This document shows positions 21,391 to 28,721 of a DNA stretch of 62,846 nt, in pieces (within the stretch, counting starts at the first letter, position 1; every line of letters begins with the position of its first letter). The DNA lies in the NCBI GenBank assembly GCA_043804415.1, contig JAZDJA010000164.1:1-62846 (forward strand), in the 5' to 3' direction. The notes beneath the pieces are model-generated. The model searched no databases, was not told the DNA's origin, and saw nothing but the letters and a program-made list of their open reading frames with translations. The position numbers were made by a program, and so were the translations under genes. The stretch comes from Candidatus Latescibacterota bacterium. GTDB taxonomy: Bacteria > Latescibacterota > 4484-107.

Positions 21391-22518
21391 ATGAAAAGAC
21401 GATTATTTACACCGGGGCCGACAACGGTTCCGGATCAGTTGCGATTGAAGATGGCCGAACCGATCATCCATCACCGTTCCCAGGAGTTCGGGCGGATGTT
21501 CGCATCGGTTAACGAGGGCTTAAAGTATCTGTTTCAGACGGAAAATGACGTGCTGACCCTGACCTCCTCCGGCACAGGAGCCATGGAGGCGGCCGTGGTG
21601 AATCTTCTTTGTGCCGGGGATCGTGCACTCGTAGTGCGGGGCGGGAAATTCGGCGAGCGTTGGGGCGAACTCTGCGAGACCTACGGGGTTCACGTGACCG
21701 CCATAGACGTGCCGTGGGGACAGGCTGTCCCGCCTGAGACCATCTCGGAACATCTGAAGGCCGATCCCACGATCAAGGCCGTTTTTGCCACGCAGAGCGA
21801 GACCTCCACCGGCGCACTCAACGACATCGAAGCCATCGGCCGAGTTGTCCGGGAAACGGAGGCCTTGCTGGTGGTGGATGCCATCACCGGCATTGGCGCG
21901 CACCCGATGCTTCCGGACGCGTGGGGTGTGGATGTGGTGGTTACGGGTTCCCAGAAGGGACTGATGCTGCCTCCTGGGCTGGCTTTTATCGCCCTGAATG
22001 AGCGGGCGTGGGCAGCGGTCAAACGTTCCGATCTTCCGAAATACTATCTGGATTTGACCAAGGCGAAGAAATCGTTGTCGAAAAATCAGAATCCCTATAC
22101 TCCTGCTGTATCGATCATTGTCGGATTGAAAGCGGCTTTGGACATGATTTCCGAAGAAGGCATTGAAAATGTATGGGCCCGTCACGCGAGAAATGCCGAG
22201 GCCACCCGAGCGGCCGTGCGAGCGATGGGGCTGGGGATCTTCGCCAAGAACCCATCCAACGTGCTGACCATCGTGCAGCTCCCAGACCAGATAGACGGCA
22301 AGCAGTTGGTGAAGGTCCTGGACGGCTATGGGTTGACTGTGGCCGGCGGCCAGGAGCAGCTCTCCGGGAGGGTCATTCGCATCTCTCACCTTGGATACAC
22401 AGACGATTTTGACTCCCTGTCCGTTATTGCTGGTTTGGAGCGCGCGCTCCGCGACATGGGCTGGGACTTGGAGCCGGGCGTGGGACTGAGTGCAGCGCAG
22501 GCTGTGCTTGCGGGATAG
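21391..22518 (+). CDS. class V pyridoxal-phosphate aminotransferase (serine-pyruvate / alanine-glyoxylate aminotransferase family)
   Basis: 375 aa from ATG 21391 (GGAGGGA RBS). LFTPGPTTVP start typical of the family, and PLP-lysine context GSQKGLMLPPG. Confidence 0.85.
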   Translation: MKRRLFTPGPTTVPDQLRLKMAEPIIHHRSQEFGRMFASVNEGLKYLFQTENDVLTLTSSGTGAMEAAVVNLLCAGDRALVVRGGKFGERWGELCETYGVHVTAIDVPWGQAVPPETISEHLKADPTIKAVFATQSETSTGALNDIEAIGRVVRETEALLVVDAITGIGAHPMLPDAWGVDVVVTGSQKGLMLPPGLAFIALNERAWAAVKRSDLPKYYLDLTKAKKSLSKNQNPYTPAVSIIVGLKAALDMISEEGIENVWARHARNAEATRAAVRAMGLGIFAKNPSNVLTIVQLPDQIDGKQLVKVLDGYGLTVAGGQEQLSGRVIRISHLGYTDDFDSLSVIAGLERALRDMGWDLEPGVGLSAAQAVLAG

Positions 22519-22664
22519 AAATGCTGGACCGCAGAGACACAGCGGCCGCGGAGAATGGCTAAACAAATAGGCACAAAGGCAAAAAGGCACAAAGAAAATC
22601 GAAGCGGTTTTCGCAGATTAGGGCACAGGTTCCGATAGATGGGATTTCCTCTCAAGGTGACGCC

Positions 22665-22835
22665 ATGAAAGCAGAATACGATCTCTCCAGGATGAAATCC
22701 CGGCGCAACCCCTACGCGAAGTTGTTCAAAAAGCAGATAGCGATCTATGTGGACATTGAAACGAATGAATTACTTGAAAATTGGGAGCTTGCGGAGCAAC
22801 ACGAAGCATTGAAGAAGATTTCACCATTGGAGTAA
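22665..22835 (+). CDS. 56-aa protein with a BrnA/CopG-antitoxin-like N-terminus, the first gene of a two-gene cassette with the DUF2442 gene
   Basis: Below the ORF-track cutoff, so I translated it myself: MKAEYDLSRMKSRRNPYAKLFKKQIAIYVDIETNELLENWELAEQHEALKKISPLE. AAGG RBS 7 nt upstream. The stop is 1 nt before the next ATG. Confidence 0.5.
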   Translation: MKAEYDLSRMKSRRNPYAKLFKKQIAIYVDIETNELLENWELAEQHEALKKISPLE

Positions 22836-22836
22836 A

Positions 22837-23088
22837 ATGATGCTGGAAGTAACCAAAGCAAGATACGAAAAAGAGTATAGAATCCGGATTGAATTCAATG
22901 ATGGTAAGTCCGGTGTAGTGGATTTGAAAGACGACTTATGGGGGTCGGTATTTGAACCTCTTAAAGACCAAAATGAATTCAAGCGATTTACCGTCTCTGA
23001 GATCCTCCATACGATCTCCTGGGAAAATGATGCCGACTTTGCACCGGAATATTTGTATCATAAGTGCCTGACAGAATGCCCCACTTGA
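22837..23088 (+). CDS. DUF2442 domain protein (small TA-associated family)
   Basis: 83 aa. YRIRIEFNDGKSGVVDLKDDLWGSVFEPLKD...ISWENDADFAPEYLY matches the DUF2442 pattern. Confidence 0.75.
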   Translation: MMLEVTKARYEKEYRIRIEFNDGKSGVVDLKDDLWGSVFEPLKDQNEFKRFTVSEILHTISWENDADFAPEYLYHKCLTECPT

Positions 23089-23134
23089 CTGCTGTTTCGA
23101 GTGAGGGATACGATGGAATAACTGGAGATTCACC

Positions 23135-23395
23135 ATGTCCAAAACAGCAACCGTCAGAGCCGGTATCGAACCGGGTTTGAAGGAGGAAGCGGAACGCGTG
23201 TTTCACGGACTTGGATTATCCACAACCCAAGCCATTGCGTTGTTCTATCGCCAGGTCAAGCTGCGTAACCGCTTGCCCTTCGATGTGGCCATTCCGAATG
23301 AGACCACTCGCAAGACCTTCGGGGATACAGACGCCGGGCGTAATCTTATGGTCTGTGAGGATACAAAGGACATGTTTGAGAAATTGGGGATCTGA
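23135..23395 (+). CDS. RelB/DinJ-family antitoxin
   Basis: 86 aa. TVRAGIEPGLKEEAERVFHGLGLSTTQAIALFYRQV is the DinJ ribbon-helix-helix signature. Confidence 0.8.
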   Translation: MSKTATVRAGIEPGLKEEAERVFHGLGLSTTQAIALFYRQVKLRNRLPFDVAIPNETTRKTFGDTDAGRNLMVCEDTKDMFEKLGI

Positions 23396-23436
23396 TGGTT
23401 ACCCCGGTCTATACAAAGCAGTTCTCGACAAGCTAA
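23395..23436 (+). pseudogene. 13-codon remnant of the cognate YafQ-type toxin gene
   Basis: An ATG overlapping the dinJ stop (TGATG) reads MVTPVYTKQFSTS-stop. The ..YTKQF.. start resembles YafQ-family N-termini, and a full toxin (~90 aa) is absent. Confidence 0.35.
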
Positions 23437-23475
23437 GGTTGAGCGAACGTTGCGACCACAAGAGGAGGCTCTATT

Positions 23476-23676
23476 ATGCAAGCAATTCAGGAAATTGAAT
23501 CAGCCGTTTCTCAGCTATCCATGAATGATCTCGCTGGTTTTAGAGAGTGGTTTGACAAATTCGATGCAGAAGTATGGGATAAACAATTTGAAAATGATGT
23601 GAAGTCAGGGAAGCTGGATCATCTTGCTAACCAAGCTATTGCAGATTTTCGGGCTGGTAGGTGCAAAGAGTTATGA
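23476..23676 (+). CDS. small antitoxin-like protein paired with the downstream RelE/ParE-type toxin
   Basis: 66 aa. LSMNDLAGFREWFDKFDAEVWDKQFENDVKSGKLDHLANQAIADFRAGRCKEL. GAGGAGG RBS. There is a 4-nt ATGA overlap with the next gene. Confidence 0.7.
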   Translation: MQAIQEIESAVSQLSMNDLAGFREWFDKFDAEVWDKQFENDVKSGKLDHLANQAIADFRAGRCKEL

Positions 23677-23927
23677 GACATTTTACCACTCCTTCATTTT
23701 GGGAATGTTATAGGAGCCTACTCCCTTCCATTCAGGAATTAGCAGATAAGAATTTTGAACTTCTGAAAGCAGACCCGAAACATCCGTCCTTGCACCTAAA
23801 GAAGGTGCGGAAGTATTGGTCCGCAAGGGTAGGAAGAAAATATCGTACTTTAGCAGTAAGGATTGAAGAGGGGTTGCTCTGGTTCTGGATCGGAACCCAT
23901 GCCGAATACGATGAATGGGTGCGGTAA
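23673..23927 (+). CDS. RelE/ParE-superfamily toxin
   Basis: 84 aa from ATG 23673. FWECYRSLLPSIQELADKNFELLKADPKHPSLHLKKV..YWSARVGRKYRTLAV...LWFWIGTHAEYDEWV is typical of this toxin family. Confidence 0.75.
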   Translation: MRHFTTPSFWECYRSLLPSIQELADKNFELLKADPKHPSLHLKKVRKYWSARVGRKYRTLAVRIEEGLLWFWIGTHAEYDEWVR

Positions 23928-23931
23928 CAGT

Positions 23932-23978
23932 CACGGTCCGGCCACTGTGAGCGCCGGTTGTTGTCCCTCTGCAGAGCC
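23932..23978 (+). repeat. degenerate partial copy (47 nt, 40/47 identical, ungapped) of the core of the cobalamin riboswitch at 26152-26198
   Basis: Left copy: cacggtccggccactgtgagcgccggttgttgtccctctgcagagcc. Right copy: cacggtcccgccactgtgagcgacggttgtaccccgtctgcaaagcc. The left copy lacks the 5' half of the aptamer and has lost the gacgg/ccgtc pairing. Confidence 0.8.
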
Positions 23979-24063
23979 AAAAAAAAGCCGAAGCGCCCTT
24001 TTTTAGACGTGCGTAGTGAGTCGCATCCGATCCAAAAATATCGGAGATGCCTTCAAAAAACTA

Positions 24064-24092
24064 TTGACAAGCATGCGCTCAACACGTATATT
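24064..24092 (+). promoter_or_regulatory. consensus sigma70 promoter (TTGACA-17 nt-TATATT) driving the DUF262-HEPN cassette
   Basis: ttgaca agcatgcgctcaacacg tatatt read directly, followed by a ~240-270-nt AT-rich leader. Confidence 0.6.
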
Positions 24093-24331
24093 TTCCCCTC
24101 GTGAAAAGTGCCTGCTGAAAGGCTAATATCCTGCAACTCGCCGCAAAAGAAAAACCAAGGTTGCTGCACAATTTTCTGATTAGATTAGATATTACGATCT
24201 TTTTTGAAGAGTTCTATGCGTCAACCAGCCTATTATGAAACGAGGCTCCTGGTCGTAATAATACATTAAACAGAAAGATAGGTAGCGGAGCAGCTTGTGA
24301 TATATTGCAGTGCGCAGTATAAGCTAAGGTT

Positions 24332-25468
24332 ATGCAAAAAAAACAAACTGAGGGAATATTAATGAATGAATATTTAGAGGAACTCCATCACGAAATTGAA
24401 CAGGAACAAAACATAGAAGATGAGTCCGATGGAGAGGAAGTATCTCCCTCTCGTTATGACATTACAAGCTATGGTATTGATTTTGATGTGGAGGGTGTTG
24501 TCAGGAGAGTTCAGAAAGGAGATATTTATATTCCTGATTTTCAGAGAAAGTTCGTGTGGAAAATGACAGAATCATCAAGATTCATTGAGTCACTTCTGCT
24601 AGGCCTTCCTGTGCCTGGAATATTTTTAGCTCAAGATCCAGAATCTGGGAAAATGCTTGTCATTGATGGACAACAGAGATTGCTAACTTTAAAATTTTTC
24701 TTCGACGGGTATTTCAATCCTAAGGAAGATGCAGCTATCAAAAGAGTTTTTAAGCTGTCCAAAGTTCAAGAACCATACATAGACAAAACATACGAAACCC
24801 TAAACGGTAAGGATCGAACAAATCTTGGAAATTGCGTTATCCATTCCACTGTTGTCAAACAAGATAGTCCTGCGGATGATGACACCAGTATCTATCATAT
24901 ATTTGAAAGGTTAAATAGTGGGGGCAAAAAACTAGCCGCACAAGAAATACGAATAGCAGTATATCATGGCCATTTTCTCGAATTGCTGAAAACAATGAAT
25001 TCCAATCCTGCTTGGAGAAGAATTTTTGGGCCAGAAAATGACAGGATGAGAGATCAAGAACTAATACTAAGATTTCTTGCAATGCTTGAAGGTTCTCAAA
25101 ACTACAAAAAGCCGATGGTCGACTTTTTGAATAAATTCTTAAGAAGAAACAGAAATCCAGGTACTGATGAACTCAAGCGATATCATGATATTTTTGTAGA
25201 TACAATAAATGCCTTCCATGAAGCACTTGGCCATAAGATTTTCAGACCTGCGAGGGCTTTGAATGTCGCATTTTTCGAAGCGTCGATGGTAGGGTTGGCA
25301 AGAAGAATTGCCAGTAATGTGGAGATCGAACAAGCAAAAATAAAAGAAGCATATGACAGATTGAATGATAATCTCAAATTTAAGGAGTTGATATCACAAT
25401 CGACAACAGACATCAGTAATGTTTCTGAACGATTAGAGATTGCCACAACAATTTTCATGGAGGTGTAG
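24332..25468 (+). CDS. DUF262 (ParB-like NTPase/nuclease superfamily) protein lacking a DUF1524/HNH nuclease half
   Basis: 378 aa. Motifs: IPDFQRKFVW, VIDGQQRLLTL, IFERLNSGGKKL. The alternative start ATG 24362 has a GAGGGA RBS. Sampled 60-nt lines are 32-35% GC. Confidence 0.85.
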   Translation: MQKKQTEGILMNEYLEELHHEIEQEQNIEDESDGEEVSPSRYDITSYGIDFDVEGVVRRVQKGDIYIPDFQRKFVWKMTESSRFIESLLLGLPVPGIFLAQDPESGKMLVIDGQQRLLTLKFFFDGYFNPKEDAAIKRVFKLSKVQEPYIDKTYETLNGKDRTNLGNCVIHSTVVKQDSPADDDTSIYHIFERLNSGGKKLAAQEIRIAVYHGHFLELLKTMNSNPAWRRIFGPENDRMRDQELILRFLAMLEGSQNYKKPMVDFLNKFLRRNRNPGTDELKRYHDIFVDTINAFHEALGHKIFRPARALNVAFFEASMVGLARRIASNVEIEQAKIKEAYDRLNDNLKFKELISQSTTDISNVSERLEIATTIFMEV

Positions 25469-25474
25469 CACGCC

Positions 25475-25951
25475 ATGAAAATTGTTGAATTGAATCGGCA
25501 GGCTCAATCCATAAAAAGACTCATAAAATCTACGGCTGAATCAACCAATTTTAATCTGGAGTTGCAGGGGCATTGGGGAAAGTATCTTTGCGTTCTCGCA
25601 TCAGGTTTTCTAGAAAACGCTATAAGTGAAATATACATCGAACTTGCAAGTAATTCGTCATCACCTCAAGTGACATCATTTACGAGGAGAATGCTGGACA
25701 GAATCCATAATCCAATGGCATCAAAATTCATTGAGACTGCATGTTCTTTCAAGCGAGAATGGGGCGCAGAACTAAAAGAGTATTTTGAACTTAATCCAAA
25801 AGCAAAAGAGGCCATCGATTCCATCATGAGGAATAGGCATCTAATAGCACATGGAAAAACAGCAACTGTTTCTGTGGCTAGATTGGCTGAGTATCTTGAT
25901 GGTAGCATCGAAGCTCTGGAGTTTATTGAAAATCAATGCGGTATAGCATAG
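25475..25951 (+). CDS. small HEPN-superfamily protein (RiboL-PSP / MAE_28990-like type), predicted RNase
   Basis: 158 aa. It starts 6 nt after the DUF262 stop, with a GGAGGTG RBS inside the end of the upstream gene. C-terminal IMRNRHLIAHG is an Rx4-6H motif. Confidence 0.65.
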   Translation: MKIVELNRQAQSIKRLIKSTAESTNFNLELQGHWGKYLCVLASGFLENAISEIYIELASNSSSPQVTSFTRRMLDRIHNPMASKFIETACSFKREWGAELKEYFELNPKAKEAIDSIMRNRHLIAHGKTATVSVARLAEYLDGSIEALEFIENQCGIA

Positions 25952-26097
25952 CAGTCGGCTCAAGTCGGACTGCAATTCGGCTACGCTACATTGCAAGCGC
26001 TGGCCGCGGCGTTGGAGTACTGGCATAGTTACTAAATCATCTCATAAACCAAGTGGAAACAGCTTTCCACCTGAATTAAACTCTACATCGAACATAC

Positions 26098-26350
26098 CTA
26101 TGGAATAGGGTGCCCCGCAAGGGGAGAATAGGGAAGTCGGTGCAAATCCGACACGGTCCCGCCACTGTGAGCGACGGTTGTACCCCGTCTGCAAAGCCAC
26201 TGTCCCGAATGGGATGGGAAGGCGCAGACGGACAGTCGCAAGTCAGGAGACCTGCCCCGTTCCAGTTCCCGAAGAGAAGCCTTCGAGGTCAAGGCTGGCG
26301 GACGCTGCATCGATTCCCCAGCCTGTCTTTTGGAAGGTTGGGGTTTTTTT
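26098..26350 (+). promoter_or_regulatory. cobalamin (B12) riboswitch with terminator-type expression platform
   Basis: ggtgccccgcaaggggagaatagggaagtcggtgcaaatccgacacggtcccgccactgtgagcg ... agtcaggagacctgcc (B12 box). It lies upstream of a TonB-dependent receptor. Confidence 0.9.
26316..26350 (+). terminator. intrinsic terminator of the riboswitch expression platform
   Basis: ccccagcct-gtcttttgga-aggttgggg followed by T7. Confidence 0.7.
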
Positions 26351-26489
26351 GTGCTCAAAGAATTGCACTGCAGAGAGAAACGCAGGTGGACGTAAGGAAG
26401 AAAGACCGCTTGATTCCTGCCTTTCTTTACCTTTACCCATACATGCTCTTGCTGTCCGCGCACGCTGATGCAAGCCAAAAAGAGGACTG

Positions 26490-28721
26490 ATGCGAGCTGG
26501 AATGATAGTGGGATTCCTGATACTATGGGCAGCACCCCTCTGGGCCATCCAGACGGGCCGGATCGTGGGCCGGGTGACGGATGCGGATACCGGAGAATCC
26601 TTAGCTGGCGCGGTGGTACTGCTTCCGGGCACGAACTTGGGAGCCATAGCGGACACGTCGGGGTATTTTCGGATGGAGGGCGTGCCAGCCGGTATGGTAC
26701 AGGTCGAAGCACGGATGGTGGGATATGCGCCTTCGGCGCGGGTGAACCTCCGAGTTGAAGCCGGGAAGGTGGTGGCGTTTTCCCTTTCGCTGGTGCCGAT
26801 CCGGTACAAGATGAAGGAGGTTTCGGTGATCGCGGAGCGGTTGCCTTTCGCTCTGGCCGAGCGTTCTCCGGTATCCCTTCGGGTGATCCGGGCGGCGGAG
26901 TTCGAGCATAGGGTTACATCCGTGTCTGAGCTTTTGTCAGAGGCTGGGGGCGTGCAGATCAAAACATCTGGCGGATTGGGCAGCTACAGCACGGTTTCCA
27001 TACGGGGCAGTTCATCGGAACAGGTGAACGTGTATCTCGATGGGGTGCTATTGAACAGCACGTTGGGTGGTGGTGTCGACGTGGGGAATATTCCGCTCTC
27101 CCACGTGGAGCGGGTCGAGGTCTATAAAGGGGCAACACCTGTGGAACTAGGCGGAGAAGCCATCGGAGGGGCGATCAATATCGTGACCCAGTCTCCTGAT
27201 CGTCGGCGCGTCGGAATTGGCGCGTTCGGCGGTACGTTCGGCACCGCGAAGGCGAACTGGATACTCTCGGAGAAAAAGGAGAAGTTGGGGCTACTCTTTG
27301 CGATGGATTACGTCCGAAGCGACAATAATTTCCGATTTTTAGATGACAACGGAACACGGTATAATCAAGAAGACGACACGTGGATGCAACGCCGAAACAA
27401 CGATTTTCAGGGATTTAATGCCATTGGCAAGATCGACTATGCGCTGCGGCCATCTGCCACGCTGATTTTGAACAACAACTTCTATTGCTCAGACAAGGGG
27501 ATTCCCGGCATTGGCAGCTTCCAGTCCAAATCCGCCCGCTTTCGGACGCTTCGGAATTTGACGGAGGGGTCGCTCATCCTCAGACAGGTATTCGAAAGGA
27601 TGACGTTTCGGCTGAAGGGCGTATCCAGCTATTATGCTGGCGACTACCGTGATCTAGAGAACGAGGTGGGACTGGGACGGCAGGACAATCACAACGTCAC
27701 GCGTACGGTCGGAGGCGAATTGCACATCCAGACACTGCTCTGGAATCATCAGATTTTATCGGGCGTTCTTCGCGGAAGCACTGAGGGCTTCAAGCCTACA
27801 GATCGCATGCAGAATACGTTCCTGTTGGACAACAAAAGGGCGAGTTTCTCGGCGGCTCTGGAGGATGAAATTTTACTCTGGGGGGATCGGCTGAGCATCG
27901 TGCCGTCTGGGCAGTGGGACGTGCTTTTCAGTGAATTTATTGGGGATGGACACTGGATCGAGGGGCCGGCACGGAAGCAACGGCATGCCATGTTCAGCCG
28001 TAGGTTGGGCGTGCGGTTTAAGGCGGCTTCTTGGATGGTACTCAAGGCGAACGTGGCGAAATCCTATCGTGCGCCCTCGTTTTATGAATTGTTTGGGGAC
28101 AAGGGATCGGTTATCGGGAATACGAACTTGACGCCGGAGGAGGGGCTTAACCGGGACGTGGGATGCCGTGTAAGCGGGAAACAAGGATCCTCGGACGCTT
28201 TTTTGGAGGTTAGTTATTACGACAATCGCCTGAGGGACGCGATCCAGTTTATCCAGCATTCCCAAAATGTCTCGAGACCCGAGAACATCGGACGGGCGCA
28301 GATTCGAGGGTTGGAGTGCGCAGCCGGGGCAAATTTCTTCCACCATCTCATGGTGGGGGGTAACCTGACGCGGCAGGACGCGCAAAATATGACCGAACTG
28401 TATGGCGGCATCTATCTCGATAAATGGTTTCCGAATAAGCCCCGATATGAGGGCAGCGGACGGATAGAGGTGTCTGACGAACGCTGGGGGAAGCTGTTTT
28501 ACGAAGTCAGCGCAACCGGCAAAAATTATCACGATCTCTACAATAAATTCCCCGTGCCAAAGCGGGTGCTGCACAATGTGGGGATTACCGTCTTCGGCGC
28601 ACGGAGCAGCTTTCATATTACGGTGGAGGGCAAGAATCTGACGGATAATCAGGTCGCGGATCTGTGGGGATATCCGCTTCCCGGACGGGCGTATCATATG
28701 GGTGTTCGGGGGAGCCTCTAA
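26490..28721 (+). CDS. TonB-dependent outer-membrane receptor with N-terminal carboxypeptidase-regulatory-like domain, a B12-regulated BtuB-like candidate
   Basis: 743 aa. Signal peptide, GRVTDADTGESLAGAVV (CarbopepD_reg-like), plug region, and a long beta-barrel. It follows the riboswitch directly. Confidence 0.88.
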   Translation: MRAGMIVGFLILWAAPLWAIQTGRIVGRVTDADTGESLAGAVVLLPGTNLGAIADTSGYFRMEGVPAGMVQVEARMVGYAPSARVNLRVEAGKVVAFSLSLVPIRYKMKEVSVIAERLPFALAERSPVSLRVIRAAEFEHRVTSVSELLSEAGGVQIKTSGGLGSYSTVSIRGSSSEQVNVYLDGVLLNSTLGGGVDVGNIPLSHVERVEVYKGATPVELGGEAIGGAINIVTQSPDRRRVGIGAFGGTFGTAKANWILSEKKEKLGLLFAMDYVRSDNNFRFLDDNGTRYNQEDDTWMQRRNNDFQGFNAIGKIDYALRPSATLILNNNFYCSDKGIPGIGSFQSKSARFRTLRNLTEGSLILRQVFERMTFRLKGVSSYYAGDYRDLENEVGLGRQDNHNVTRTVGGELHIQTLLWNHQILSGVLRGSTEGFKPTDRMQNTFLLDNKRASFSAALEDEILLWGDRLSIVPSGQWDVLFSEFIGDGHWIEGPARKQRHAMFSRRLGVRFKAASWMVLKANVAKSYRAPSFYELFGDKGSVIGNTNLTPEEGLNRDVGCRVSGKQGSSDAFLEVSYYDNRLRDAIQFIQHSQNVSRPENIGRAQIRGLECAAGANFFHHLMVGGNLTRQDAQNMTELYGGIYLDKWFPNKPRYEGSGRIEVSDERWGKLFYEVSATGKNYHDLYNKFPVPKRVLHNVGITVFGARSSFHITVEGKNLTDNQVADLWGYPLPGRAYHMGVRGSL

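What the first reader, a model, noticed from the sequence alone, without database searches (positions are those of the whole stretch)
24064..25951. DUF262 (ParB-like) protein plus HEPN RNase: candidate uncharacterised two-gene defence or abortive-infection system
Two genes separated by 6 nt, with a GGAGGTG RBS embedded in the end of gene 1, sit behind a consensus promoter (TTGACA-17-TATATT) and a ~240-270-nt AT-rich leader. Gene 1 (378 aa) has the DUF262 signatures IPDFQRKFVW, IDGQQRL and FERLNSGGKKL. It lacks the DUF1524/HNH-type nuclease half that accompanies DUF262 in GmrSD/BrxU/SspE-type enzymes. Gene 2 (158 aa) ends in IMRNRHLIAHG, an Rx4-6H HEPN motif. The DNA-nuclease effector therefore seems to be replaced in trans by a predicted RNase. 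That would give a nucleotide-dependent ParB-like sensor plus an RNA-targeting effector, which is abortive-infection logic. As far as I recall, comparative work on HEPN domains (Anantharaman et al. 2013) noted HEPN families linked to ParB/DUF262 genes. I know of no experimentally characterised or named system with this architecture. The context is foreign composition and adjacent TA modules.
Basis: partly seen in the sequence, partly recalled or inferred. Interest (0 to 1): 0.85.

Follow-up and report, generated by a model that had tools for sequence, protein, structure and literature searches.

The report
Divergent PD-T4-2-type phage defence gene pair
This is a horizontally acquired two-gene cassette (a ParB-like DUF262 NTPase plus a small HEPN RNase) with the same architecture as PD-T4-2, an anti-phage system validated in E. 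coli in 2022, so it is a divergent new member of a known but mechanistically unsolved system, not a new kind of system.

Summary
Two co-oriented genes 6 nt apart sit in a 37-41% GC insert within a 55-60% GC genome, behind the best sigma-70-like site in the region.

- **Gene 1** is DUF262/GmrSD_N only, with no DUF1524 nuclease domain. Its conserved start is 24362 (368 aa), not 24332.
- **Gene 2** (158 aa) is a RiboL-PSP-type HEPN protein. Its Rx4H motif is invariant in all 49 intact homologues examined.
- **Pairing:** the two families are obligate neighbours. In about 68 of 74 genomes from at least 14 phyla, the DUF262 gene lies directly upstream (median gap 0 nt). The two proteins also co-diverge.

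PD-T4-2 was shown to block T4 both when cloned and in its native strain. Anantharaman et al. 2013 had already listed RiboL-PSP-HEPN as 'in operon with ParB'.

Gene 1 matches the PADLOC PD-T4-2_A model over its full length (8e-62). Gene 2 misses the PD-T4-2_B models, although that name is the commonest PADLOC hit among its wider family.

The likely mechanism is an inference: a ParB-like NTPase/DNA sensor activates the HEPN RNase on infection. I found no published mechanism for PD-T4-2.

Verdict: new, divergent member of a known kind; modest interest.

The parts
24064..24092 (+). Sigma-70-like promoter candidate, TTGACA-17-TATATT
   Evidence: It matches 11 of 12 positions and is the best site in 22500-26400. 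This is a consensus match only. The roughly 270-nt leader downstream of it is not conserved in relatives.
24350..24354 (+). RBS (GAGGG) of gene 1, 7 nt before the conserved ATG
   Evidence: Read from the sequence. Relatives L083-L086 and L008 conserve it as GAGGA.
24362..25468 (+). Gene 1: PD-T4-2A/NsnA-like protein, 368 aa. It has a ParB-like DUF262 (GmrSD_N) NTPase domain plus a helical C-terminal domain, and no nuclease domain. The FQR motif is at residues 60-62, DGQQR at 102-106 (nt 24665-24679) and ERLNSGG at 182-188.
   Evidence: - Pfam PF03235, E 3e-29.
- PADLOC NsnA 5e-72 and PD-T4-2_A 7.7e-62, both over the full length.
- phrog_2598, E 1e-77.
- AF2 model with pLDDT 83.7. The best PDB matches are BrxU 7p9k (E 7e-4, prob 1.0), SspE and ParB-CDP.
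- Q61, R62, W66, D102, G103, Q105, R106, R183, N185 and G188 are invariant in 49 homologues.
25446..25487 (+). Perfect 15-bp inverted repeat (25446-25460 and 25473-25487). Its 12-nt loop holds most of the gene 2 RBS and the gene 1 stop codon. Its right arm contains the gene 2 ATG. It probably enforces translational coupling.
   Evidence: Found. The RNA fold gives -25.8 kcal/mol, z = -3.3. Shorter versions occur in close relatives L008 and L061. It is not family-wide: the median z is about 0 over 64 loci.
25459..25465 (+). RBS (GGAGGTG) of gene 2, inside the end of gene 1
   Evidence: Read from the sequence.
25475..25951 (+). Gene 2: small HEPN protein of the RiboL-PSP type, 158 aa, predicted RNase effector. 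The Rx4H motif is R121-H126 (nt 25835-25852).
   Evidence: - Pfam PF18735, 50 bits against a cut-off of 28.4, with PF18737 second.
- R121, H126, G127 and E47 are invariant in 49 homologues whose pairwise identity goes down to 23%.
- AF2 model with pLDDT 93.6, all-alpha. The top Foldseek PDB hits are HEPN proteins 4nqf, 1wol and 2hsb (prob 0.77-0.87), but the E-value is about 0.4.
- No PADLOC hit for this protein.
23932..23979 (+). Left copy of a 48-nt direct repeat (85% identical). It is a fragment of the B12-box region of a cobalamin riboswitch and marks the left edge of the cassette.
   Evidence: It does not score as a riboswitch on its own.
26152..26199 (+). Right copy of the 48-nt repeat. 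It lies inside the intact cobalamin riboswitch (26091-26273) that precedes the TonB-dependent receptor gene at 26490-28721.

Best explanation
The locus is a self-contained, horizontally acquired two-gene anti-phage module of the PD-T4-2 type.

- **Gene 1** encodes a ParB/sulfiredoxin-fold DUF262 NTPase with a helical C-terminal domain. That domain is of the kind called ParBDB (ParB-associated DNA-binding) in NsnA, DndB and SspE.
- **Gene 2** encodes a small HEPN ribonuclease with an intact Rx4H active-site motif.

Shown here: the domain content, conserved catalytic motifs in both proteins, obligate adjacency and co-divergence of the two genes across many phyla, and homology of gene 1 to PD-T4-2A and NsnA.

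Taken from the literature: a DUF262 + RiboL-PSP/MAE_28990-type HEPN pair (PD-T4-2) blocks T4.

Inferred:
1. The two proteins are made in fixed proportion by translational coupling and form a complex.
2. The DUF262 protein binds a feature of invading phage DNA. By analogy with GmrSD, BrxU and SspE, this may be modified DNA.
3. NTP binding or hydrolysis at the DGQQR pocket changes its conformation.
4. That change releases or activates the HEPN RNase, which cuts tRNA, rRNA or mRNA and halts translation. Phage replication stops, probably at the cost of the infected cell.
For: **Architecture and domains**
- The ORFs, 6-nt gap and motifs are as described.
- Pfam gives PF03235 for gene 1, and PF18735 then PF18737 for gene 2. 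The authors' HHpred reported the same families for PD-T4-2A and PD-T4-2B.

**Link to PD-T4-2**
- Gene 1 matches PADLOC PD-T4-2_A at 7.7e-62, covering positions 7-362 of 363.
- Of 117 representatives of the gene 2 family, the PADLOC name hit most often is PD-T4-2_B. Its three models are matched by 10, 5 and 3 members, with a best E of 1.9e-6.
- PD-T4-2 is experimentally validated, including by deletion in its native strain.

**Pair conservation**
- A DUF262-family gene lies directly upstream on the same strand in about 68 of 74 genome loci from at least 14 phyla. The exceptions are contig-end truncations or fragmentary matches.
- The gap between the genes ranges from -14 to +15 nt, median 0 (n = 62).
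- The identity matrices of the two proteins correlate (r = 0.73, Mantel p = 0.001).

**Active sites**
- DGQQR, FQR and RLN-GG in gene 1, and E47, R121 and H126 in gene 2, are essentially invariant in 49 intact pairs.

**Structure**
- The gene 1 model resembles BrxU, SspE and ParB-CDP and has no nuclease domain.
- The gene 2 model is a confident helical bundle whose top PDB hits are HEPN proteins.

**Defence or mobile context of homologues**
- Type I R-M, MmeI-type R-M, putAbiC and a P2-like prophage.
- Here the cassette is low-GC and sits next to toxin-antitoxin genes.
Against: - Gene 2 itself gets no hit to any PADLOC model, including the three PD-T4-2_B models. PADLOC's PD-T4-2_B requirement is therefore not met for this locus.
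- I could not obtain the ECOR65 PD-T4-2 sequences, so there is no direct alignment to the validated proteins.
- HEPN partners of DUF262 genes are heterogeneous. A profile of this family shows no similarity to the HEPN partner in E. coli NRG 857C, although the DUF262 partners align over their full length (33% identity, E 4e-48). Function may not transfer one-to-one between subtypes.
- Gene 1 scores slightly higher on the Menshen NsnA model than on PD-T4-2_A (241 against 207 bits).
- The Foldseek support for the HEPN fold is not significant by E-value (about 0.4).
- Nothing here shows anti-phage activity, RNase activity, a complex, or the trigger.
- I found no published mechanism for PD-T4-2 itself.
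Confidence: 0.75

Rival explanations
1. The pair is a toxin-antitoxin (addiction) module. The HEPN protein would be a constitutively active RNase toxin. The DUF262 protein would be its antitoxin, encoded first as in type II systems. The pair would stabilise the island and would not sense phage. This is not exclusive with abortive infection.
For: - The putative neutraliser comes first, and the genes abut or overlap (median gap 0).
- In this window a perfect 15-bp hairpin sequesters the gene 2 start. HEPN could then be translated only after gene 1.
- Three other toxin-antitoxin-like genes lie immediately upstream.
- HEPN toxins are known from HEPN-MNT toxin-antitoxin systems (general knowledge; cited).
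Against: - In at least five genomes (L016, L030, L044, L046, L053) the DUF262 gene is split by a large insertion (about 1.3-2.8 kb) while the HEPN ORF stays intact. In L016 the insert carries a DDE transposase gene. This is hard to reconcile with an essential antitoxin, although polar loss of HEPN expression could explain it.
- The DUF262 protein keeps an invariant NTPase pocket, which a simple stoichiometric antitoxin would not need.
- The PD-T4-2 pair, which has the same architecture, was selected and validated as a phage defence.
Confidence: 0.12
2. The pair is a type IV-restriction-like DNA-targeting system. The ParB-like DUF262 protein itself would nick or cleave (modified) phage DNA, as some ParB/Srx proteins do. 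The HEPN protein would be an accessory or regulatory subunit, not the effector.
For: - The closest solved structures to gene 1 are the type IV enzymes BrxU and SspE.
- Some ParB/Srx-family members nick DNA (cited).
- The ten systems selected on T4 generally also protected against T2 and T6, and T-even phage DNA is modified (my own knowledge).
Against: - In GmrSD, BrxU and SspE the cutting is done by the DUF1524 HNH domain. That domain is absent here.
- The HEPN Rx4H catalytic residues are invariant in 49 of 49 homologues, which argues that the HEPN protein is an active enzyme.
Confidence: 0.08
3. The locus is a degenerate or minimal Menshen (NsnABC) locus. Gene 1 would be NsnA and gene 2 an unrelated passenger gene.
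For: The best PADLOC hit of gene 1 is NsnA (5e-72, full length).
Against: - There is no NsnB ABC-ATPase or NsnC gene in the island.
- Every HEPN-partnered DUF262 protein tested also scores higher on NsnA than on PD-T4-2_A, so the NsnA model is simply broad.
- The HEPN gene is the fixed partner across about 68 genomes.
Confidence: 0.03

Closest known systems
PD-T4-2 (Vassallo et al. 2022, Nat Microbiol; E. coli ECOR65)
   Same: - It is a two-gene operon with a DUF262 (PF03235) protein of about 360 aa, lacking DUF1524, encoded first.
- A small HEPN protein of about 160 aa follows, which HHpred assigns to PF18735 and then PF18737. This is the same order of Pfam hits as gene 2.
- Gene 1 matches the PADLOC PD-T4-2_A model end to end.
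- The total size is similar: 1540 bp there and 1590 bp here.
   Different: - Gene 2 does not reach any of the three PADLOC PD-T4-2_B models. Only about 10-15% of its wider family do, and weakly.
- The host is a high-GC environmental bacterium, not E. coli.
- No direct sequence comparison with the ECOR65 proteins was possible.
Menshen (NsnABC; Millman et al. 2022; Bell et al. NAR 2025, PMC12065111)
   Same: The sensor-like first gene has the same ParB-DUF262 + helical 'ParBDB' architecture, and gene 1 matches NsnA at 5e-72. In Menshen the proposed effectors (NsnC) are mostly RNases, which parallels the HEPN protein here.
   Different: Menshen has three genes, with an ABC-ATPase transducer (NsnB) and an inPIN-effector protein (NsnC). 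Here the sensor is paired directly with a 158-aa HEPN protein and there is no ATPase.
GmrSD / BrxU / SspE type IV restriction enzymes
   Same: They share the N-terminal DUF262 NTPase domain with the DGQQR motif and the following helical domain. BrxU and SspE are the best structural matches to gene 1.
   Different: Those are single polypeptides of about 560-820 aa (chain lengths) with a C-terminal DUF1524 HNH DNase domain. Here that domain is absent and a separate predicted RNase gene follows.
RiboL-PSP-HEPN and MAE_28990 HEPN families 'in operon with ParB' (Anantharaman et al. 2013)
   Same: This is the same HEPN family and the same gene-neighbourhood association, predicted by comparative genomics.
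   Different: That was a computational note only, with no named system and no experiment.
Other DUF262 + HEPN pairs (E. coli NRG 857C lambdoid prophage remnant, Akkermansia phage Chambord, Peduovirus P24B2)
   Same: They show the same two-gene order, with a homologous DUF262 protein. The E. coli NRG 857C protein is 33% identical over its full length (E 4e-48; loci).
   Different: The HEPN partners are longer (178-239 aa). The NRG 857C partner shows no detectable similarity to gene 2 by profile comparison. Some of them are MAE_28990-type.

Membership tests
PD-T4-2 | Two adjacent co-oriented genes, with the DUF262 gene first and the HEPN gene second | tested here: met
   The gap here is 6 nt. 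The same order and a gap of -14 to +15 nt are seen in 62 homologous loci.
PD-T4-2 | Component A is a DUF262/GmrSD_N protein without DUF1524 that matches the PD-T4-2_A profile | tested here: met
   PF03235 is the only significant Pfam domain. PADLOC PD-T4-2_A gives 7.7e-62 over positions 7-362 of 363. Caveat: the NsnA model scores higher (5e-72).
PD-T4-2 | Component B is a small HEPN protein of the RiboL-PSP/MAE_28990 type with an Rx4-6H motif | tested here: met
   PF18735 at 50 bits (cut-off 28.4), with PF18737 second. These are the same families the authors report for PD-T4-2B. R121 and H126 are invariant.
PD-T4-2 | Component B matches the PADLOC PD-T4-2_B profiles | tested here: not met
   Gene 2 and two close homologues get no hit even at E <= 10. 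At family level, 10, 5 and 3 of 117 representatives match the three PD-T4-2_B models (best E 1.9e-6), and it is the commonest PADLOC hit. The family borders the models but this protein falls below their reach.
PD-T4-2 | Direct sequence homology to the validated ECOR65 proteins (RCO39066.1 and the downstream ORF; QOYX01000002, 338334-339873) | not tested
   The sequences could not be retrieved. The accession is not in the collections, and DNA searches of 5,426 E. coli genomes found only a different DUF262 + HEPN variant.
PD-T4-2 | Confers resistance to phage (T4 for the prototype) | not testable with these tools
   This needs cloning and phage challenge. Only the prototype has been tested.
Menshen (NsnABC) | An NsnA-like ParB-DUF262 + ParBDB protein | tested here: met
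   PADLOC NsnA 5e-72 over positions 22-381 of 385. The model shows a helical C-terminal domain.
Menshen (NsnABC) | An NsnB ABC-ATPase (AAA_15/DUF3696) immediately downstream, followed by an NsnC effector | tested here: not met
   The downstream gene is a 158-aa HEPN protein. No ATPase ORF lies in 22.6-26.1 kb. Across homologous loci the partner is HEPN.
GmrSD / BrxU / SspE type IV restriction | A C-terminal DUF1524 (His-Me/HNH) nuclease domain fused to DUF262 | tested here: not met
   There is no DUF1524 hit. The protein is 368 aa, and its C-terminal half is all-helical without a nuclease domain.
HEPN-MNT toxin-antitoxin | A minimal nucleotidyltransferase (MNT) antitoxin partner | tested here: not met
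   The partner is a DUF262 protein. No nucleotidyltransferase domain was found in either protein.

The most novel reading that the evidence does not exclude
The DUF262 + helical-domain protein may be a conserved, portable sensor platform onto which unrelated effector lineages have been swapped. These would include at least three mutually unalignable HEPN subtypes and the NsnB/NsnC pair. On this reading, the 158-aa HEPN clade found here is a distinct subtype that current detection models miss. It spans at least 1,500 clusters at 50% identity and at least 14 phyla. Its trigger or RNA target could differ from that of E. coli PD-T4-2. It would deserve its own subtype definition and could serve as a compact two-protein model for how a ParB-like NTP switch gates an RNase.
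Probability: 0.3. Interest if true: 0.45.

Novelty: new member of a known kind. Interest (0 to 1): 0.3.

Why it matters
There are three practical points.

1. **Annotation.** A best-hit reading of PADLOC would mislabel gene 1 as Menshen NsnA. The locus also does not meet PADLOC's PD-T4-2_B requirement, because the HEPN partner falls below those models. The clade is large and phylogenetically broad: 855 clusters at 50% identity with E <= 1e-10, and genome loci from at least 14 phyla. Better profiles would therefore recover many missed defence loci.

2. **Mechanism.** I found no published mechanism for PD-T4-2. This family offers a minimal system of 368 + 158 aa with clear, invariant residues to mutate (D102/R106 and R121/H126). 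It could show how a ParB-like NTPase couples DNA sensing to an RNase.

3. **Local biology.** The cassette sits between two copies of a cobalamin-riboswitch segment, directly upstream of the riboswitch-controlled TonB-dependent receptor gene. This is a concrete example of a defence cassette inserting into a regulatory region.

None of this is a surprise to a specialist.

Tried and rejected
**Retrieving the validated ECOR65 PD-T4-2 sequences (failed)**
- The accession is not held.
- The Pantoea homologue DNA has no match in 5,426 E. coli genomes.
- The window DNA, and then the E. coli hit it produced, led only to a different 387 + 182 aa DUF262 + HEPN variant. That variant sits in a lambdoid prophage remnant and occurs in 31 genomes. 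It scores worse on PD-T4-2_A than the window protein does (132 against 207 bits).
- Protein (tblastn) searches of phages and plasmids gave only distant variants.

**DARNA is not this system**
- DARNA (bioRxiv 2026) is PD-T7-3, a single HEPN protein, so it is not the mechanism paper for this system.

**Junction hairpin as a family-wide feature (rejected)**
- It is strong here (z = -3.3) and present in a few close relatives. Over 64 loci the median z is about 0.

**Conserved regulatory element in the roughly 270-nt leader (rejected)**
- The leader does not align with relatives, and Rfam finds only chance-level hits.

**The left riboswitch-like repeat as a second riboswitch (rejected)**
- It is only a 48-nt fragment.

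**Direct similarity between this HEPN protein and the E. coli NRG 857C HEPN partner**
- None was found.

**Solved structures**
- No solved structure of a homologous complex turned up.

**Dazbog**
- Not supported: no Dazbog-named model appears among the PADLOC hits for gene 1.

**Prevalence on viral contigs**
- Only one IMG/VR contig carries this HEPN subtype.
Full report
**1. The observation**

The window has two + strand ORFs at 24332..25468 and 25475..25951, separated by 6 nt. GGAGGTG lies at 25459-25465, just before the gene 1 stop codon.

TTGACA-17-TATATT at 24064-24092 matches 11 of 12 positions and is the best sigma-70-like site in 22500-26400. The total number of such sites there is not above shuffled expectation.

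The cassette is 37-41% GC and the flanks are 55-60% GC. Upstream lie DUF2442, RelB and ParE-like toxin-antitoxin genes. Downstream lies a TonB-dependent receptor gene behind an intact cobalamin riboswitch.

One correction is needed. The window's own called product is 368 aa and homologues are 367-369 aa. Relatives conserve the ATG at 24362 and its GAGG RBS, but not the ATG at 24332. Gene 1 is therefore 24362..25468. The roughly 270-nt leader is not conserved.

**2. What the proteins are**

*Gene 1.*
- It hits only PF03235 (GmrSD_N/DUF262; E 3e-29) and no DUF1524.
- An AlphaFold2 model (pLDDT 83.7) has an alpha/beta N-terminal domain followed by an all-helical C-terminal half.
- Its best PDB matches are BrxU (E 7e-4, prob 1.0), SspE and CDP-bound ParB.
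- The helical half corresponds to what Bell et al. call the ParBDB DNA-binding domain in NsnA, DndB, GmrSD and SspE.

*Gene 2.*
- It hits PF18735 HEPN_RiboL-PSP above the gathering score (50 against 28.4 bits). PF18737 is second.
- Its model is a confident helical bundle (pLDDT 93.6).
- The top Foldseek hits are HEPN proteins (4nqf, 1wol, 2hsb; prob 0.77-0.87), but the E-value is only about 0.4.
- The HEPN call therefore rests mainly on the Pfam profile and the motif.

**3. Conservation of the pair**

Gene 2 has 206 close homologues, all PF18735 and mostly 155-170 aa. A full HMMER scan of 1.84 billion cluster representatives finds 1,528 clusters at 50% identity with E <= 1e-3, and 855 with E <= 1e-10.

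A scan of GTDB species genomes returned 74 loci. By record title they cover:
- Chloroflexota and Dehalococcoidia;
- Gamma-, Alpha- and Betaproteobacteria;
- Desulfobacterota, Spirochaetia, Acidobacteriota and Bacteroidota;
- Cyanobacteria, Planctomycetota, Gemmatimonadota and Nitrospirota;
- Armatimonadota, Latescibacterota, Actinomycetota and Clostridia.

In about 68 of the 74 loci, a gene of the gene 1 family lies directly upstream on the same strand. The exceptions are contig-end truncations or fragmentary matches.

Over 62 intact pairs the stop-to-start distance is -14 to +15 nt, with a median of 0.

In 49 intact pairs:
- HEPN residues E47, R121, H126 and G127 are 100% conserved;
- DUF262 residues Q61, R62, W66, D102, G103, Q105, R106, R183, N185 and G188 are 100% conserved;
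- the two pairwise-identity matrices correlate (r = 0.73, Mantel p = 0.001).

The pair is thus a co-inherited unit with both predicted active sites under selection.

Its contexts include type I R-M, an MmeI-type R-M enzyme, putAbiC and a P2-like prophage in Pantoea. It also occurs as a lone insert among housekeeping genes, as it does here.

**4. Comparison with known systems**

PADLOC matches gene 1 over its full length to NsnA (Menshen; 5e-72) and to PD-T4-2_A (7.7e-62).

The literature shows the architecture is already named.
- Table S1 of Vassallo et al. 2022 lists PD-T4-2 as 'DUF262, HEPN', from ECOR65.
- Their HHpred table gives PF03235 for PD-T4-2A. For PD-T4-2B it gives PF18735 (97.8%) followed by PF18737 (96.9%). 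This is the same order of Pfam hits as for gene 2.
- PD-T4-2 protected against T4 from its native promoter in K-12. Deleting it from ECOR65 restored T4 plaquing.
- Reviews list PD-T4-2 among the DUF262 systems that lack DUF1524 and call them uncharacterised.
- Anantharaman et al. 2013 already recorded 'Ribo L-PSP-HEPN ... operon with ParB'.

The domain calls and the defence inference are sound.

**5. How firm is membership?**

Gene 2 does not hit any PADLOC model. PADLOC's PD-T4-2_B requirement is therefore not met for this locus, and a best-hit reading would mislabel gene 1 as NsnA.

Menshen is excluded. No NsnB ATPase or NsnC gene is present, and the conserved partner across genomes is the HEPN gene. 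All HEPN-partnered DUF262 proteins tested score higher on NsnA than on PD-T4-2_A, so the NsnA model is simply the broader one.

At family level, PD-T4-2_B is the most frequent PADLOC hit among 117 representatives of the gene 2 family. Its three models are matched by 10, 5 and 3 members, with a best E of 1.9e-6. This places the family next to PD-T4-2_B but mostly below model sensitivity.

I could not obtain the ECOR65 sequences. E. coli genomes yielded a different DUF262 + HEPN variant (387 + 182 aa, NRG 857C).
- Its DUF262 protein aligns with the window family over the full length (33% identity, E 4e-48).
- Its HEPN protein shows no detectable similarity.

The sensor-like protein is thus conserved while the HEPN effectors are very divergent or have been exchanged. 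I file the locus as a divergent member of the PD-T4-2 kind. One defining test (the B profile) is not met, and one (direct comparison) was not possible.

**6. Mechanism**

Nothing in the library describes how PD-T4-2 works. DARNA is PD-T7-3, not this system.

My best-supported model is an inference, drawn by analogy with GmrSD, BrxU and SspE. In SspE the DUF262 domain senses modified DNA and uses NTP hydrolysis to activate the nuclease domain.
1. The two proteins are co-translated and form a complex.
2. The DUF262 + helical domain protein detects phage DNA.
3. The NTP switch releases or activates the HEPN RNase.
4. RNA cleavage halts translation and phage growth.

In this window a perfect 15-bp hairpin sequesters the gene 2 start codon and loops out the RBS (-25.8 kcal/mol, z = -3.3). 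It would tie HEPN synthesis to translation of gene 1. This is lineage-specific and not family-wide.

The main rival is a toxin-antitoxin reading, with DUF262 as the antitoxin. It fits the gene order and the coupling, and it is weakened by two observations.
- At least five genomes have the DUF262 gene split by a large insertion while the HEPN ORF stays intact. In L016 the insert carries a DDE transposase gene.
- The NTPase pocket is invariant.

**7. Verdict**

It is a divergent instance of an already named and experimentally validated defence system. The underlying gene association was described in 2013.

Its value is modest. It offers better detection profiles for a large clade and a compact model for an unsolved mechanism.

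Noticed in passing
window 23932-23979 and 26152-26199: A 48-nt direct repeat (85% identical, 2,220 nt apart) brackets exactly the promoter + DUF262 + HEPN cassette. The right copy is part of the intact cobalamin riboswitch (26091-26273) that precedes the TonB-dependent receptor gene. The left copy is an isolated B12-box-region fragment directly after the ParE-like toxin gene. This suggests the cassette entered by recombination at or inside a cobalamin riboswitch.
   Followed up: partly
window 25446-25487: A perfect 15-bp inverted repeat spans the gene 1 / gene 2 junction. Its loop holds most of the gene 2 RBS and the gene 1 stop codon, and its right arm contains the gene 2 ATG. The fold gives -25.8 kcal/mol, z = -3.3. 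Shorter versions occur in close relatives (L008, L061), but it is not conserved family-wide.
   Followed up: yes
L016 2734-5203; also L030, L044, L046, L053, L064: In several genomes, mostly Dehalococcoidia, the DUF262 gene is split by a large insertion (about 1.3-2.8 kb). In L016 the insert carries a DDE_Tnp_1_4 transposase gene. The downstream HEPN ORF is usually still intact. This bears on whether HEPN alone is toxic.
   Followed up: partly
window 22665-23927: A cluster of small toxin-antitoxin-like genes lies in the same low-GC island, just upstream of the cassette. It includes a DUF2442 protein (22837-23088) with a small upstream partner ORF, a RelB antitoxin (23135-23395) with no obvious toxin, and a 66-aa ORF plus a ParE-like toxin (23476-23927).
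   Followed up: partly
L082 4860-6576 (E. coli NRG 857C, NC_017634.1): A different DUF262 (387 aa) + HEPN (182 aa, PF18735) pair is inserted among lambdoid prophage structural genes, next to a truncated capsid gene. It is present in 31 of 5,426 complete E. coli genomes. It matches PADLOC PD-T4-2_A only moderately and PD-T4-2_B only weakly, so it is probably another unrecognised PD-T4-2-like subtype.
   Followed up: partly
L006 140-2015 (Peduovirus P24B2) and L007 2474-4176 (Akkermansia phage Chambord): Phage-borne DUF262 + HEPN pairs. In P24B2 the partner is a 239-aa MAE_28990-type HEPN protein, and the pair lies near a cytosine methyltransferase gene and the replication protein gene. In Chambord the pair directly follows a DNA methyltransferase gene.
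   Followed up: no
L064 7069-8883: A group II intron (Rfam D1-D4 and domain V-VI models) lies just downstream of a degraded DUF262 + HEPN pair in a Planctomycetota MAG.
   Followed up: no
window 24362-24460 (gene 1 residues 1-33): Gene 1 has a strongly acidic N-terminal tail (EELHHEIEQEQNIEDESDGEE). The model has low confidence there (pLDDT below 50 at residues 17-28). Homologues conserve its acidic character but not its sequence. It could be an autoinhibitory or DNA-mimicking segment.
   Followed up: no
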